From the IMG/VR virus record IMGVR_UViG_2609459856_000004: a DNA stretch of 8,806 bases; one strand, 5' to 3'. Positions 1 to 8,506 of this stretch are shown here, piece after piece. The notes under the pieces were generated by a model. That model saw nothing but the letters and a program-made list of their open reading frames with translations, searched no databases and was not told the DNA's origin. The first letter of the stretch is position 1; each line of letters starts with the position of its first letter. The DNA is from a virus. Lineage: Duplodnaviria > Heunggongvirae > Uroviricota > Caudoviricetes. A program made the position numbers and the translations under genes.

Positions 1-2950
<2,950 letters not shown>

Positions 2951-2951
<1 letters not shown>

Positions 2952-3649
2952 TGCAGGATATCCGGCAGGAAACACTGAATGAATGCACCCGTGCGGAGCA
3001 GTCGGCCAGCGTGGTGCTCTGGGAAATCGATCTGACAGAGGTCGGTGGAGAGCGTTATTTTTTCTGTAATGAGCAGAACGAAAAAGGTGAGCCGGTCACC
3101 TGGCAGGGGCGACAGTATCAGGCGTATCCCATTCAGGGGAGCGGTTTTGAACTGAATGGCAAAGGCACCAGTACGCGCCCCACGCTGACGGTTTCTAACC
3201 TGTACGGTATGGTCACCGGGATGGTGGAAGATCTGCAGAGTCTGGTCGGCGGAACGGTGGTCAGGCGTAAGGTTTACGCCCGTTTTCTGGATGCGGTGAA
3301 TTTCGTCAACGGAAACAGTGATGCCGATCCGGAGCAGGAGGTGATCAGCCGCTGGCGCGTCGAGCAGTGCAGCGAACTGAGCGCGGTCAGTGCCTCCTTT
3401 GTGTTGTCCACGCCGACGGAAACGGATGGTGCTGTTTTTCCGGGGCGCATCATGCTGGCCAACACCTGCACCTGGACCTATCGCGGTGATGAGTGCGGTT
3501 ATAGCGGTCCGGCGGTCGCGGATGAATATGACCAGCCGACGTCCGATATCACGAAGGATAAATGCAGCAAATGCCTGAGTGGCTGTAAGTTCCGCAATAA
3601 CGTCGGCAACTTTGGCGGCTTCCTTTCCATTAACAAACTTTCGCAGTAA
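2951..3649 (+). CDS. L: Minor tail / tail-tip protein gpL (Cys-rich C-terminal region, Fe-S cluster binding in the lambda homologue)
   Basis: 232-aa ORF, same length as lambda gpL. TGATG 1-nt overlap with the M stop. C-terminal Cys cluster CTWTYRGDECGYSGP...DKCSKCLSGCKF. Confidence 0.9.
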
Positions 3650-3653
3650 TCCC

Positions 3654-4397
3654 ATGACAGAGACAGAATCAGCGATTCTGGCGCACGCCCGGCGATGTGC
3701 GCCAGCGGAGTCGTGCGGCTTCGTGGTGAGAACGCCGGAGGGGGAAAGATATTTTCCCTGCGTGAATATCTCCGGTGAGCCGGAGGATTATTTCCGGATG
3801 TCGCCGGAGGACTGGCTGCAGGCAGAAATGCAGGGTGAGATTGTGGCGCTGGTCCACAGTCATCCCGGTGGTCTGCCCTGGCTGAGTGAGGCCGACCGGC
3901 GGCTGCAGGTGCAGAGTGATTTGCCGTGGTGGCTGGTCTGCCGGGGGGCGATTCATAAGTTCCGCTGTGTGCCGCATCTCACCGGGCGGCGCTTTGAGCA
4001 CGGGGTGACGGACTGTTACACGCTGTTCCGGGACGCTTACCATCTGGCGGGGATTGAGATGCCGGACTTTCATCGTGAGGATGACTGGTGGCGTAACGGC
4101 CAGAATCTCTATCTGGATAATCTGGAGGCCACAGGGCTGTATCAGGTGCCGTTGTCAGCGGCGCAGCCGGGCGATGTGCTGCTGTGCTGTTTTGGTTCAT
4201 CGGTGCCGAATCATGCCGCCATTTACTGTGGTGACGGCGAGCTGCTGCACCATATTCCTGAACAACTGAGCAAACGAGAGAGGTACACCGACAAATGGCA
4301 GCGACGCACACACTCCCTCTGGCGTCACCGGGCATGGCGCGCATCTGCCTTTACGGGGATTTACAACGATTTGGTCGCCGCATCGACCTTCGTGTGA
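3654..4397 (+). CDS. K: Tail tip assembly protein gpK: N-terminal JAMM/MPN (JAB) metalloprotease-like domain plus C-terminal NlpC/P60 cysteine peptidase-like domain
   Basis: Track ORF 3579..4397; first ATG after the L stop is at 3654 (MTETESAILAHARRCA...), giving 247 aa. JAMM motif H-x-H-x7-S-x2-D present as HSHPGGLPWLSEAD (His codons 3855..3857 and 3861..3863, Asp 3894..3896). NlpC/P60-like Cys in GVTDCYTLF (codon 4014..4016) with downstream His residues (NHAAIY, LLHH). Alternative start at ATG 3798 (MSPEDW..., 199 aa, the classical lambda K length) is preceded by GGAGGA at 3782..3787. Confidence 0.75.
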   Translation: MTETESAILAHARRCAPAESCGFVVRTPEGERYFPCVNISGEPEDYFRMSPEDWLQAEMQGEIVALVHSHPGGLPWLSEADRRLQVQSDLPWWLVCRGAIHKFRCVPHLTGRRFEHGVTDCYTLFRDAYHLAGIEMPDFHREDDWWRNGQNLYLDNLEATGLYQVPLSAAQPGDVLLCCFGSSVPNHAAIYCGDGELLHHIPEQLSKRERYTDKWQRRTHSLWRHRAWRASAFTGIYNDLVAASTFV

Positions 4398-4966
4398 AAA
4401 CGGGGGCTGAAGCCATCCGGGCACTGGTCACACAGCTCCCGGCGTTTCGTCAGAAACTGAGCGACGGCTGGTATCAGGTACGGATTGCCGGGCGGGACGT
4501 CAGCACGTCCGGGTTAACGGCGCAGTTACATGAGACTCTGCCTGATGGCGCTGTGATTCATATTGTTCCCAGAGTCGCCGGGGCCAAGTCAGGTGGCGTA
4601 TTCCAGATTGTCCTGGGGGCTGCCGCCATTGCCGGATCATTCTTTACCGCCGGAGCCACCCTTGCAGCATGGGGGGCAGCCATTGGGGCCGGTGGTATGA
4701 CCGGCATCCTGTTTTCTCTCGGTGCCAGTATGGTGCTCGGTGGTGTGGCGCAGATGCTGGCACCGAAAGCCAGAACTCCCCGTACACAGACAACGGATAA
4801 CGGTAAGCAGAACACCTATTTCTCTTCACTGGATAACATGGTTGCCCAGGGCAATGTTCTGCCTGTTCTGTACGGGGAAATGCGCGTGGGGTCACGCGTG
4901 GTTTCTCAGGAGATCAGCACGGCAGACGAAGGGGACGGTGGTCAGGTTGTGGTGATTGGTCGCTGA
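4295..4966 (+). CDS. I: Tail tip assembly protein gpI: N-terminal ubiquitin-like domain plus Gly/Ala-rich hydrophobic C-terminal region
   Basis: 223-aa ORF (MAATHTLPLASPGMARICLYGDLQRFGRRIDLRV...), same length as lambda gpI and matching it by recollection. Start overlaps the 3' end of K by 103 nt in a different frame. Gly-Gly at residues 100-101 (codons 4592..4597) followed by a hydrophobic stretch. Confidence 0.9.
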   Translation: MAATHTLPLASPGMARICLYGDLQRFGRRIDLRVKTGAEAIRALVTQLPAFRQKLSDGWYQVRIAGRDVSTSGLTAQLHETLPDGAVIHIVPRVAGAKSGGVFQIVLGAAAIAGSFFTAGATLAAWGAAIGAGGMTGILFSLGASMVLGGVAQMLAPKARTPRTQTTDNGKQNTYFSSLDNMVAQGNVLPVLYGEMRVGSRVVSQEISTADEGDGGQVVVIGR

Positions 4967-4984
4967 TGCAAAATGTTTTATGTG

Positions 4985-5005
4985 AAACCGCCTGCGGGCG
5001 GTTTT
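4985..5005 (+). other. Short GC hairpin followed by T-run in the I–J intergenic spacer (possible attenuator or mRNA-stabilising stem-loop)
   Basis: aaaccgcc-tgcg-ggcggttt (8-bp stem, 4-nt loop) then T-rich tail, between the I stop (4964..4966) and the J ribosome-binding site (GGAG at 5015..5018). Confidence 0.3.
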
Positions 5006-5026
5006 GTCATTTATGGAGCGTGAGGA

Positions 5027-8000
5027 ATGGGTAAAGGAAGCAGTAAGGGGCATACCCCGCGCGAAGCGAAGGACAACCTGAAGTCCACGCAGTTGCTGAG
5101 TGTGATCGATGCCATCAGCGAAGGGCCGGTTGAAGGTCCGGTGGATGGATTAAAAAGCGTGCTGCTGAACAGTACGCCGGTGCTGGACACTGAGGGGAAT
5201 ACCAACATCTCCGGTGTCACGGTGGTGTTCCGTGCCGGTGAGCAGGAGCAGACACCGCCGGAGGGGTTTGAATCCTCCGGCTCCGAGACGGTGCTGGGTA
5301 CGGAAGTGAAATATGACACGCCGATCACCCGCACCATTACGTCTGCAAACATCGACCGTCTGCGCTTTACCTTCGGTGTACAGGCACTGGTGGAAACCAC
5401 CTCAAAGGGGGACAGGAATCCGTCGGAAGTCCGTCTGCTGGTTCAGATACAACGTAACGGTGGCTGGGTGACGGAAAAAGACATCACCATTAAGGGCAAA
5501 ACCACCTCGCAGTATCTGGCCTCGGTGGTGGTGGGTAGCCTGCCGCCGCGCCCGTTTAATATCCGGATGCGCAGGATGACGCCGGACAGCACCACAGACC
5601 AGCTGCAGAACAAAACGCTCTGGTCGTCATACACCGAAATCATCGATGTGAAACAGTGCTACCCGAACACGGCACTGGTCGGCGTGCAGGTGGACTCGGA
5701 GCAGTTCGGCAGCCAGCAGGTGAGCCGTAATTATCATCTTCGCGGGCGCATTCTGCAGGTGCCGTCGAACTATAACCCGCAGACGCGGCAATACAGCGGT
5801 ATCTGGGACGGAACGTTTAAGCCGGCATACAGCAACAACCCGGCCTGGTGTCTGTGGGATATGCTGACCCACCCGCGCTACGGCATGGGGAAACGTCTTT
5901 GTGCGGCGGATGTGGATAAATGGGCGCTGTATGTCATCGGCCAGTACTGCGACCAGTCAGTGCCGGACGGTTTTGGCGGCACGGAGCCGCGCATCACCTG
6001 TAATGCCTACCTGACCACGCAGCGTAAGGCGTGGGATGTGCTCAGTGATTTCTGCTCGGCGATGCGCTGTATGCCGGTATGGAACGGGCAGACGCTGACG
6101 TTCGTGCAGGACCGACCATCAGATAAGGTGTGGACCTGTAACCGCAGTAATGTGGTGATGCCGGATGATGGCGCGCCGTTCCGCTACAGCTTCAGCGCCC
6201 TGAAGGACCGCCATAATGCCGTTGAGGTGAACTGGATTGACCCGAACAACGGCTGGGAGACGGCGACAGAGCTTGTTGAAGATACGCAGGCCATTGCCCG
6301 TTACGGTCGTAATGTCACGAAGATGGATGCCTTTGGCTGTACCAGCCGGGGGCAGGCGCACCGCGCCGGGCTGTGGCTGATTAAAACGGAACTGCTGGAA
6401 ACGCAGACCGTGGACTTCAGCGTGGGTGCAGAAGGGCTTCGCCATGTACCGGGCGATGTCATTGAAATCTGCGATGATGACTATGCCGGTATCAGCACCG
6501 GCGGGCGCGTGCTGGCGGGAAACAGCCAGACCCGGACGCTGACGCTCGACCGTGAAATCACGCTGCCATCCTCCGGTACCACGCTGATAAGCCTGGTTGA
6601 CGGAAGTGGCAATCCGGTCAGCGTGGAGGTTCAGTCCGTCACCGACGGCGTGAAGGTAAAAGTGAGCCGTGTTCCTGACGGTGTTGCTGAATACAGCGTA
6701 TGGGGGCTGAAGCTGCCGACGCTGCGTCAGCGACTGTTCCGCTGTGTGAGTATCCGTGAGAACGACGACGGCACGTATGCCATCACTGCCGTGCAGCATG
6801 TACCGGAGAAAGAAGCCATCGTGGATAACGGGGCGCACTTTGACGGTGACCAGAGCGGCACGGTGAATGGTGTCACGCCGCCAGCGGTGCAGCACCTGAC
6901 TGCCGAAGTCACTGCAGACAGCGGGGAGTATCAGGTACTGGCCCGCTGGGACACGCCGAAGGTGGTGAAGGGCGTGAGCTTCCTGCTTCGCCTGACCGTG
7001 GCAGCGGACGACGGCAGTGAGCGGCTGGTCAGCACGGCCAGGACGACGGAAACCACATACCGCTTCAGGCAACTGGCGCTGGGGCGTTACACGCTGACGG
7101 TCCGGGCGGTAAATGCGTGGGGACAGCAGGGCGATCCGGCATCGGTATCGTTCCGGATTGCCGCACCGGCAGCGCCGTCGCGGATTGAGCTGACGCCGGG
7201 CTATTTTCAGATAACTGCCACGCCGCATCTTGCGGTTTATGATCCGACGGTACAGTTTGAGTTCTGGTTCTCGGAAACGCGGATTACCGATATCAGGCAG
7301 GTTGAAACCACAGCCCGCTATCTTGGCACGGCGCTGTACTGGATAGCCGCCAGTATCAATATCAAACCGGGCCATGATTATTATTTTTACATCCGCAGTG
7401 TGAACACCGTTGGCAAATCGGCATTTGTGGAGGCTGTTGGCCAGCCGAGTGATGATGCATCCGGCTATCTGGATTTTTTCAAAGGCGAGATAGGGAAAAG
7501 CCATCTGGCTCAGGAGCTGTGGACGCAGATTGATAACGGTCAGCTTGCGCCTGACCTGGCTGAAATCAGGACGTCCATTACGGATGTCAGCAATGAAATC
7601 ACGCAGACCGTCAATAAGAAACTGGAAGACCAGAGTGCGGCAATTCAGCAGATACAGAAGGTTCAGGTTGATACAAATAATAACCTGAACAGCATGTGGG
7701 CTGTGAAGCTGCAGCAGATGCAGGACGGACGCCTTTATATCGCGGGTATTGGTGCCGGTATTGAGAACACCCCTGACGGCATGCAGAGTCAGGTGCTGCT
7801 GGCGGCGGACAGGATTGCGATGGTTAATCCTGCGAATGGCAACACAAAGCCGATGTTTGTTGGTCAGGGCGATCAGATATTCATGAACGAAGTGTTCCTG
7901 AAATATCTGACGGCTCCCACCATTACCAGCGGCGGTAATCCTCCGGCATTTTCCCTGACACCGGACGGGCGGCTGACGGCGAAAAATGCCGATATCAGCG

Positions 8001-8506
8001 GTAACGTGAATGCGAACTCCGGGACGCTCAACAACGTCACGATTAACGAGAACTGCCGGGTTCTGGGAAAACTGTCCGCGAACCAGATTGAAGGCGATCT
8101 CGTTAAAACAGTGGGCAAAGCTTTCCCCCGGGACTCCCGTGCACCGGAACGGTGGCCATCAGGGACCATTACCGTCAGGGTTTATGACGATCAGCCGTTT
8201 GACCGGCAGATTGTTATTCCGGCGGTGGCATTCAGCGGCGCTAAACATGAGAGAGAGCATACTGATATTTACTCCTCATGCCGTCTGATAGTGCGGAAAA
8301 ACGGTGCTGAAATTTATAACCGTACCGCGCTGGATAATACGCTGATTTACAGTGGCGTTATTGATATGCCTGCCGGTCACGGTCACATGACGCTGGAGTT
8401 TTCGGTGTCAGCATGGCTGGTAAATGACTGGTATCCCACAGCAAGTATCAGCGATTTGCTGGTTGTGGTGATGAAGAAAGCCACCGCAGGCATCAGTATC
8501 AGCTGA
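5027..8506 (+). CDS. J: Central tail fibre / host specificity protein gpJ (tail tip attachment protein)
   Basis: 1159-aa ORF beginning [34 protein letters not shown]..., matching the lambda gpJ N-terminus by recollection. GGAG Shine-Dalgarno 8 nt upstream. Fibronectin-III-like repeats in the middle (about residues 615-805). C-terminal ~150 aa would be the receptor-binding region. Confidence 0.9.

What the first reader, a model, noticed from the sequence alone, without database searches (positions are those of the whole stretch)
3654..4966. K–I pair as a JAMM peptidase plus ubiquitin-like domain module
gpK carries an intact JAMM motif and a separate NlpC/P60-type Cys-His-His set (Cys codon 4014..4016). 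The adjacent gpI has an N-terminal region previously described as ubiquitin-like, ending at a Gly-Gly (codons 4592..4597) immediately before a hydrophobic Gly/Ala-rich segment. Comparative genomics work (as I recall, Iyer, Burroughs and Aravind) proposed that JAB domains in K process the Ubl of I, an arrangement reminiscent of ubiquitin C-terminal GG processing. To my knowledge the catalytic role in tail-tip assembly is not fully resolved. All catalytic residues appear conserved here.
Basis: partly seen in the sequence, partly recalled or inferred. Interest (0 to 1): 0.5.

Follow-up and report, generated by a model that had tools for sequence, protein, structure and literature searches.

The report
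Lambda tail-tip K peptidase and I
These are the well-known lambda-type tail-tip genes K (a two-domain peptidase) and I (a plug protein with a removable ubiquitin-like N-terminal domain), so the finding is real, intact here and correctly read, but already described.

Summary
K (3654-4397, 247 aa) has a complete JAMM motif (E19, H68-S-H70-x7-S78-xx-D81) and an NlpC/P60 Cys121-His187-His199 set. I (4295-4966, 223 aa) has a Lambda_tail_I N-domain, Gly100-Gly101, a hydrophobic Gly/Ala-rich stretch and a C-terminal plug.

I differs from lambda gpI at 2 residues. The L-K-I-J arrangement with the same domains recurs in six distant phages.

This is the Iyer, Burroughs and Aravind 2006 proposal. Virion structures resolve only gpI 134/135-223 and find no gpK. 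[quoted passage not shown]

Caveat: the family-conserved glycine is G96 (97%). It aligns with MoaD's terminal Gly-Gly, whereas GG100-101 is present in about half of relatives. The scissile bond is unresolved.

Verdict: already known, low interest. In passing: an IS3-family element disrupts gene H here, and the 199-aa lambda K annotation stems from a one-base difference.

The parts
3654..4397 (+). Gene K: 247-aa tail-tip assembly peptidase (stop included)
   Evidence: ORF and translation. Pfam Prok-JAB + NLPC_P60. 96-98% identical to abundant 247-aa E. coli prophage proteins. Phage 21 annotates the same 744-nt gene.
3654..3968 (+). K residues 1-105: JAMM/MPN+ (Prok-JAB) zinc-metallopeptidase domain
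   Evidence: PF14464 residues 4-98, E 4.5e-14. pLDDT 88-96. Foldseek to 5ld9/5lda PfJAMM1, Rpn11 and CSN5. Weak NCBIfam 'desampylase' match, below its cut-off.
3708..3710 (+). K Glu19, catalytic glutamate of the JAMM motif
   Evidence: Invariant in 29 close and 7 distant homologues.
3855..3896 (+). K H68-S-H70-x7-S78-x-x-D81, zinc-binding core of the JAMM motif
   Evidence: Regex match HSHPGGLPWLSEAD. Invariant in 29 close homologues. Kept in 7/7 distant ones, allowing a one-residue shorter loop in cyanophage S-2L.
3984..4325 (+). K residues 111-224: NlpC/P60 (C40) papain-like cysteine peptidase domain
   Evidence: PF00877 residues 111-224, E 5.8e-13. Foldseek to MepS, LytE, CwlO and Acd autolysins.
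4014..4016 (+). K Cys121 (TGT), NlpC/P60 nucleophile. Partners are His187 (4212-4214) and His199 (4248-4250).
   Evidence: All three invariant.
4295..4966 (+). Gene I: 223-aa tail-tip protein (stop included)
   Evidence: Differs from lambda gpI of PDB 8iyk at 2 residues (A45V, I164T). Shine-Dalgarno-like GAGAGAGG upstream.
4295..4397 (+). 103-nt overlap of K and I, with I in the -1 frame relative to K
   Evidence: Coordinates. Both reading frames are conserved at protein level.
4334..4585 (+). I residues 14-97: MoaD/ThiS-like beta-grasp (ubiquitin-like) domain, ending in conserved P92-x3-G96-A97
4592..4597 (+).
   Evidence: GGT GGC. G101 invariant among close relatives. The equivalent position is Gly in 48/64 distant relatives, and the GG dipeptide is present in 35/64.
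4598..4750 (+). I residues 102-152: hydrophobic Gly/Ala-rich segment, variable in length between G108 and G143
   Evidence: Composition. Indels. Residues 137-152 are described as hydrophobic and possibly membrane-interacting in PMC10721106.
4697..4963 (+). I residues 135-223: plug ('insertion') domain that stays in the virion as a trimer holding the tape-measure C-termini
   Evidence: Resolved residues 135-223 (PMC10721106) and 134-222 (PMC12617516). PDB 9e7m chains cover 133-222.

Best explanation
K and I are the lambda-type tail-tip assembly pair. I is made as a precursor of three parts: an N-terminal MoaD/ThiS-like ubiquitin-like domain (about residues 14-97), a hydrophobic Gly/Ala-rich segment, and a C-terminal plug domain. 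K is a non-structural two-domain peptidase, with an N-terminal JAMM zinc metallopeptidase and a C-terminal NlpC/P60 cysteine peptidase. During tip assembly, once I is bound to J and L, the JAMM domain of K recognises the ubiquitin-like domain of I. It cuts the polypeptide at the small-residue tail just after the beta-grasp, either G96-A97 or G100-G101. The ubiquitin-like domain and K then leave. The C-terminal part of I stays as the trimeric plug that grips the C-termini of the tape-measure protein H. The removable domain thus acts as an assembly checkpoint. Shown here: the sequence features, both folds, conservation of all catalytic residues, and the conserved L-K-I-J arrangement. Taken from the literature: absence of K and of the N-terminal part of I from virions, and K-dependent cleavage. 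Inferred: the exact bond cut and which K domain cuts it.
Against: No primary paper with the cleavage data was found in the library, so the key experiment is known to me only from a meeting summary. The model of I is low-confidence (mean pLDDT 41, N-domain 51-64). A profile of the I N-domain searched against PDB sequences gives MoaD only at E above 1. The scissile bond is not determined, and GG100-101 is not universally conserved. The role of the equally conserved NlpC/P60 domain is unexplained. In this particular window, gene H upstream is interrupted by an IS element, so the module may not currently be used to build tails.
Confidence: 0.85

Rival explanations
1. The NlpC/P60 cysteine peptidase domain of K, not the JAMM domain, cuts I. 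Alternatively the two domains cut at two different sites, for example G96-A97 and G100-G101. In either case the JAMM domain would serve mainly to dock the ubiquitin-like domain.
For: C121, H187 and H199 are as invariant as the JAMM residues. The 2006 paper speaks of processing by 'the peptidase domains' of K. Two small-residue sites follow the beta-grasp.
Against: A fully conserved zinc-site motif argues for JAMM catalysis. JAMM enzymes are the ones known to cut after the tail of MoaD-like and ubiquitin-like domains (PfJAMM1-SAMP2 is the closest fold match). The conference summary attributes the activity to the 'deubiquitinating domain'.
Confidence: 0.1
2. K is a cell-wall hydrolase, as database names such as 'C40 family peptidase' or 'cell wall-associated NlpC family hydrolase' imply. 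On this view it helps the phage cross peptidoglycan, and the N-terminus of I is merely disordered rather than removed.
For: The closest NlpC/P60 fold matches are peptidoglycan endopeptidases such as MepS, LytE and CwlO. Sources give such names. There is a weak TIGR02219 'phage cell wall peptidase' match, below its cut-off.
Against: gpK is not detected in virions by mass spectrometry or cryo-EM. PA0639 is absent from mature F-pyocin yet required for tip assembly. The N-terminus of PA0640 is detected in stalled tips but not in mature particles. K has no signal peptide or wall-binding domain in the Pfam scan.
Confidence: 0.03
3. The ubiquitin-like domain of I is a true modifier or sulphur carrier. 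After release, its exposed glycine terminus would be activated and conjugated to a phage or host target, as with SAMPs, ThiS/MoaD or the bacterial Bil system.
For: The closest folds are MoaD, SAMP1, Urm1 and CysO, all of which are adenylated at a C-terminal glycine. A conserved glycine ends the domain.
Against: No E1- or E2-like gene lies in the window, whose large ORFs are H, M, L, K, I and J. None appears among the four to six annotated tail genes of each distant locus. The residue after G96 is usually Ala or Ser, not Gly.
Confidence: 0.02

Closest known systems
Bacteriophage lambda gpK / gpI (TAPK / TAPI of Iyer, Burroughs and Aravind 2006; PDB 8iyk, 8iyl, 8k35, 8xcg, 9e7m for gpI)
   Same: Same genes. 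I differs from lambda gpI at 2 of 223 residues. The JAB domain of K (residues 1-110) is 96.4% identical to that encoded by independently sequenced lambda derivatives. L-K-I-J order and the 103-nt K/I overlap are identical.
   Different: Here K is an uninterrupted 247-codon ORF, whereas reference-type lambda records annotate 199 aa because of a one-base difference. This copy lies next to an H gene interrupted by an IS3-family element.
F-type pyocin PA0639 / PA0640 and phage T1 gp34 (PDB 25vf, 9l9p)
   Same: These are homologous tip-plug proteins: PA0640 E 1.3e-12 and T1 gp34 E 4.1e-15 against the I N-domain profile. Only the C-terminal part is seen in particles. The PA0640 N-terminus is removed on maturation and the K homologue is essential.
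   Different: About 30-35% identity. In T1 the model begins at residue 92, which aligns with lambda G101, whereas lambda models begin at 134/135.
Archaeal JAMM1 desampylases with SAMPs (P. furiosus JAMM1-SAMP2, PDB 5lda; H. volcanii JAMM1)
   Same: A small JAMM metallopeptidase acts on the C-terminal tail of a MoaD-like beta-grasp domain. These are the best JAMM fold match for K and the best beta-grasp matches for I.
   Different: SAMPs are free modifiers attached through an E1-like enzyme. Here the ubiquitin-like domain is translated in cis as the N-terminus of a structural protein, no E1 is present, and the JAMM domain is fused to an NlpC/P60 domain.
Eukaryotic ubiquitin fusion precursors (ubiquitin-ribosomal protein fusions) processed by deubiquitinases
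   Same: The logic is the same (from general knowledge). A ubiquitin-fold domain is made as an N-terminal fusion to a structural protein of a large assembly and is clipped off by a dedicated peptidase.
   Different: Different peptidase classes do most of that processing, ubiquitin is then re-used for conjugation, and homology is only at fold level.

Membership tests
JAMM/MPN+ metallopeptidases (Pfam Prok-JAB PF14464) | Motif E-x(n)-H-[S/T]-H-x7-S-x2-D | tested here: met
   E19 and H68-S-H70-x7-S78-xx-D81. Motif definition from PMC300881. Invariant in homologues.
JAMM/MPN+ metallopeptidases (Pfam Prok-JAB PF14464) | Profile match above the curated cut-off | tested here: met
   52.7 bits against a cut-off of 25, residues 4-98.
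JAMM/MPN+ metallopeptidases (Pfam Prok-JAB PF14464) | MPN fold | tested here: met
   AF2 pLDDT 88-96 over residues 1-100. Foldseek probability 1.0 to PfJAMM1 5ld9/5lda (TM-score normalised to the target 0.59-0.62) and Rpn11 4ocm_E; probability 0.97-1.0 to the CSN5 chains.
JAMM/MPN+ metallopeptidases (Pfam Prok-JAB PF14464) | Zinc binding and peptidase or isopeptidase activity on a ubiquitin-like substrate | not testable with these tools
   Known only second-hand, from the conference summary that gpK cleaves gpI (PMC12908700).
NlpC/P60 (MEROPS C40) papain-like peptidases (PF00877) | Profile match above the cut-off, and the fold | tested here: met
   49.2 bits against a cut-off of 23, residues 111-224. 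Foldseek to MepS, LytE, CwlO and Acd33800.
NlpC/P60 (MEROPS C40) papain-like peptidases (PF00877) | Cys-His-His/polar catalytic triad | tested here: met
   C121, H187 and H199 are invariant in 29 close and 7 distant sequences.
NlpC/P60 (MEROPS C40) papain-like peptidases (PF00877) | Peptidoglycan (gamma-D-Glu-mDAP) endopeptidase activity | not testable with these tools
   The substrate is unknown. Absence of K from virions argues against a role in cell entry.
ThiS/MoaD-like beta-grasp ubiquitin-like domains (Pfam Lambda_tail_I PF06805) | Profile match above the cut-off | tested here: met
   98.2 bits against a cut-off of 23.8, residues 14-97.
ThiS/MoaD-like beta-grasp ubiquitin-like domains (Pfam Lambda_tail_I PF06805) | Beta-grasp fold | tested here: met
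ThiS/MoaD-like beta-grasp ubiquitin-like domains (Pfam Lambda_tail_I PF06805) | Conserved C-terminal glycine (Gly-Gly) at the end of the domain | tested here: inconclusive
   G96 is conserved in 62/64 relatives and aligns with the penultimate Gly of MoaD and ThiS, but residue 97 is Ala, Ser or Gly. GG100-101 exists here but in only 35/64 relatives.
Ubiquitin-like conjugation systems (E1/E2 + modifier + JAMM peptidase, such as SAMP or bacterial Bil-type operons) | E1-like adenylating enzyme (and E2) encoded with the modifier | tested here: not met
   The window holds only H, M, L, K, I and J plus an IS end. The six distant loci show only L, K, I and J. This is therefore not filed as a conjugation system.
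Lambda-type tail-tip assembly module | Gene order L-K-I-J with near-identity to lambda proteins | tested here: met

The most novel reading that the evidence does not exclude
The strictly conserved but unassigned NlpC/P60 domain of K may have a second substrate. One candidate is the tape-measure protein H. Its maturation cleavage (gpH to gpH* plus a C-terminal fragment) has no known protease. It is thought to lie near a hydrophobic Gly/Ala-rich segment (window 2137-2253, about lambda residues 692-730) that resembles the segment following the ubiquitin-like domain of I. K would then be a dual maturation protease that couples removal of the I N-domain to tape-measure processing. Nothing here tests this. 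It rests on the conserved triad, the statement in PMC12617516 that the catalyst of gpH cleavage is unknown, and the F-pyocin observation that the N-domain of the I homologue is still present in mutants lacking the tape measure, distal tail protein or tube.
Probability: 0.1. Interest if true: 0.6.

Novelty: already known. Interest (0 to 1): 0.15.

Why it matters
The K-I pair is a textbook case of a ubiquitin-like domain and a JAMM deubiquitinase-type peptidase working together outside eukaryotes, used as an assembly checkpoint in a virus tail. It was predicted in 2006, and experimental confirmation is now being reported. This window adds no new biology, because it is an intact, near-identical copy. 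Two points remain open and are testable with this module: where exactly I is cut (after A97 or after G101), and what the second peptidase domain of K does.

Tried and rejected
- The search for related loci with the I N-domain alignment and with the full-length diverse alignment failed, because no stretch was conserved enough. I sampled annotated phage records instead.
- The AF2 model of I from a shallow alignment (69-99% identity) was poor (pLDDT 41). Both prediction jobs were then spent, so no deeper-alignment model could be made. The fold searches were nevertheless consistent.
- hmmsearch of the I N-domain profile against PDB sequences gave MoaD only at E 1.3-1.6, which is not significant.
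- I considered the second Gly-Gly (133-134), which sits just before the first residue resolved in virions, as the cleavage site. I rejected it for two reasons. It lies in an indel-rich, unconserved region (47-59% gaps, Gly in under 10% of relatives). Also, T1 gp34 is modelled from the residue aligned to lambda G101.
- I considered programmed -1 frameshifting from K into I, since they overlap by 103 nt and fusion proteins exist in databases. By eye I found no X XXY YYZ slippery heptamer in 4295-4397, and the fusions are mostly singletons. I regard them as likely frameshift errors or pseudogenes and did not pursue this.
- P0281, a 2,783-aa protein with 23 matches to I residues 10-57, is a spurious low-complexity repeat.
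- The IS-H junction was not found in 5,426 complete E. coli genomes, so the source strain was not identified.

Full report
**What is in the window.** The 8,806 bases are a lambda-type tail-tip operon on the + strand.
- Tape-measure gene H, lambda-like from base 279 and ending at 2625.
- M (2622-2951), L (2951-3649), K (3654-4397), I (4295-4966) and J (5027-8506).
- Pfam assigns M, L, K and I to their expected families.
- The best phage matches are E. coli lambdoid phages at 95-97% identity from base 279 onward (PhiR46_1, 2G7b, phage 21).
- Bases 1-278 are the end of an IS3-family element (ISEc31-like, 97-98% identity). Its transposase OrfA is read on the - strand. It abuts H at about codon 72, so H is disrupted in this copy.

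**Check of the observation.**
- K starts at the ATG at 3654, four bases after the L stop, and encodes 247 residues.
- E19 and H68-S-H70-PGGLPWL-S78-EA-D81 fit the JAMM motif EXnH[S/T]HX7SXXD as defined in PMC300881.
- C121 is TGT at 4014-4016, and H187 and H199 complete an NlpC/P60-type set.
- I starts at 4295 behind a GAGAGAGG ribosome-binding sequence.
- G100-G101 are GGT GGC at 4592-4597.
- Residues 102-152 are hydrophobic, with 47% Gly+Ala.
- Pfam scores are well above the curated cut-offs: Prok-JAB 52.7/25, NLPC_P60 49.2/23, Lambda_tail_I 98.2/23.8.

- The AlphaFold2 model of K is confident (mean pLDDT 84.3, pTM 0.79).
- Foldseek against the PDB returns two sets of hits, at probability 1.0 for the named top hits. 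One set is NlpC/P60 peptidases (MepS, LytE, CwlO, C. difficile autolysins). The other is JAMM enzymes: P. furiosus JAMM1 alone and bound to the MoaD-like SAMP2, Rpn11, CSN5 and the Caldiarchaeum Rpn11 homologue with ubiquitin.
- The model of I is poor overall (pLDDT 41, N-domain 51-64), because the alignment I could supply was shallow.
- Even so, all 50 best Foldseek hits are ubiquitin-fold proteins.
- A profile of 62 diverse I N-domains aligns to a small MoaD profile with E 6.6e-4 but only 27% probability. A plain HMM search of PDB sequences finds MoaD only at E above 1.
- I conclude that the MPN fold and the beta-grasp fold are both supported, the latter with moderate confidence.

**Conservation and context.**
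- In 29 K homologues at 68-98% identity, E19, H68, H70, S78, D81, C121, H187 and H199 are all invariant.
- tblastn finds I relatives in 1,733 of 50,697 phage records.
- I sampled six distant ones: Mannheimia, Burkholderia, Pseudomonas, a T1-like Klebsiella phage, cyanophage S-2L and Acinetobacter. All have L-K-I-J order, and every K has Prok-JAB plus NLPC_P60. The four I proteins scanned have Lambda_tail_I.
- The catalytic residues are kept in all seven sequences, allowing a one-residue shorter JAMM loop in S-2L.
- PHROGs also contains K-I fusion families (phrog_28576, phrog_35166).

**What is known.**
They detected the ubiquitin-like domain in lambda and T1 tail protein I. They noted the JAB + NlpC/P60 architecture of K and proposed that the JAB domain releases the ubiquitin-like domain at its C-terminal-most glycine.
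- At that time I was thought not to be in the tail. Cryo-EM has since shown a trimer of gpI residues 135-223 (PMC10721106) or 134-222 (PMC12617516). It acts as a plug holding the C-terminal helices of gpH.
- gpK is absent by mass spectrometry and in the maps.
- Virion mass spectrometry found one gpI peptide with 9.87% coverage. That figure matches only the C-terminal tryptic peptide 202-223, which is weak but consistent evidence that the N-domain is missing.
- In F-type pyocin, the I homologue PA0640 is seen only from residue 127. Its N-terminal region is absent from mature particles by mass spectrometry but present in mutants stalled before tube attachment. The K homologue PA0639 is essential for tip formation (preprint 10.64898/2026.02.24.707460).
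[quoted passage not shown] Cleavage occurred only after gpI binds other tip proteins (PMC12908700).
- I found no primary paper for this.

- Among 64 relatives at 50% identity or less, P92 is invariant. The residue four positions later (G96) is Gly in 62, and the next residue (A97 here) is Ala, Ser or Gly in 62.
- The position equivalent to G101 is Gly in 48, and a Gly-Gly dipeptide occurs in the linker in only 35.
- hhalign places the terminal Gly-Gly of MoaD and of ThiS on G96-A97, not on G100-G101. These alignments are weak but agree with each other.
- In phage T1, the I homologue gp34 was modelled from residue 92 (PMC11945409). That residue aligns with lambda G101. The hydrophobic segment is therefore retained in the particle, and the cut must lie at or before this glycine. 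At 4.3 A resolution the boundary is approximate.
- The second Gly-Gly (133-134) sits in an unconserved, indel-rich stretch and is not a candidate.
- The scissile bond is therefore either after A97 or after G101, and only protein chemistry will decide.

**Mechanism and rivals.**
- Best model (confidence 0.85): the ubiquitin-like domain is a removable N-terminal module of the plug protein. The JAMM domain of the non-structural protein K clips it off at a defined assembly step.
- Rivals:
  - The NlpC/P60 domain does the cutting or makes a second cut (0.1).
  - K is a wall hydrolase and the N-domain is merely disordered (0.03). This is contradicted by the absence of K from particles and by the F-pyocin data.
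  - The released domain is a true conjugated modifier (0.02). No E1/E2 genes are present.
- The role of the strictly conserved NlpC/P60 domain remains unexplained. A speculative possibility is processing of the tape-measure protein, whose maturation protease is unknown.

**Verdict.** The finding is real, accurately described and correctly interpreted. It is also already in the literature for a protein pair whose I differs at 2 of 223 residues and whose K JAB domain is 96.4% identical. The novelty category is 'already known' and the interest is low (0.15).

**Side observations.**
- Lambda record OR974322.1 has K, I and J at 14276-14875, 14773-15444 and 15505-18903. These match the classical reference coordinates as I recall them; I did not examine the reference record itself. 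This record lacks one G that is present in this window, in phage 21 and in the independently sequenced Lambda imm21 (GGAGGC-TATTTCC versus GGAGGCGTATTTCC).
- This single base explains why lambda K is annotated as 199 aa starting at Met49. That annotation removes Glu19 and the first 48 residues of the JAMM domain.
- DE3, Lambda imm21 and Lambda h434 imm21 all encode the JAB domain as one uninterrupted tblastn piece.
The many database entries showing 'NlpC/P60 only' 199-aa K proteins probably reflect this annotation rather than a real JAB-less variant.

Noticed in passing
window 1-278 (- strand), junction at 278/279: This is the end of an IS3-family insertion sequence (ISEc31-like, 97-98% identity; OrfA N-terminus [30 protein letters not shown]... 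read on the - strand). It abuts tape-measure gene H at about codon 72, so H is disrupted and the prophage is probably tail-defective, although K, I and J are intact. The junction is absent from 5,426 complete E. coli genomes.
   Followed up: partly
window 3786-3790; L008 (lambda OR974322.1) 783-806; L009 (Lambda imm21 OM418625.1): A lambda record with reference-type coordinates lacks one G that is present in the window, in phage 21 and in Lambda imm21. This splits the K reading frame and explains the 199-aa K annotation, which loses the JAMM glutamate. Independently sequenced lambda derivatives (DE3, imm21, h434 imm21) have the uninterrupted 247-codon frame, although Lambda imm21 is still annotated with the short gene. 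This is probably a legacy sequence or annotation error.
   Followed up: yes
window 4295-4397: K and I overlap by 103 nt, with I in the -1 frame, and both frames are conserved at protein level. Databases hold mostly singleton K-I fusion proteins (such as P0009, P0013, P0017, P0134, P0156, P0206) and two PHROG fusion families. In distant phages the overlap is only 4 nt or the genes are separated. I saw no slippery heptamer.
   Followed up: partly
window 2137-2253 (gene H): The tape-measure protein has a hydrophobic Gly/Ala-rich segment ([39 protein letters not shown], about lambda residues 692-730). It resembles the segment after the ubiquitin-like domain of I and lies near the uncharacterised gpH to gpH* cleavage region, whose protease is unknown.
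   Followed up: no
window 4984-5011, between I and J: There is a G+C-rich hairpin followed by a T-rich tract (AAACCGCCTGCGGGCGGTTTTGTCATTT). The corresponding place is annotated as a terminator in phage 21 (L001 6205-6229), but the simple terminator scan here did not flag it.
   Followed up: no
window 5027-8506 (gene J) and 2400-2560 (3' part of H): J is 1,159 aa here, and several phage matches break into pieces or stop near base 8126, which suggests a mosaic receptor-binding C-terminus. By my recollection of the lambda sequence, J there is 1,132 aa and the last ~60 residues of H also differ.
   Followed up: no
L002 (Mannheimia phage 535AP2) 1232-1501: In this distant relative, K and I do not overlap. 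They are separated by an annotated terminator and a 41-codon ORF, yet its K keeps the lambda-type C-terminal helix (DFDGILNDIAVNN).
   Followed up: no
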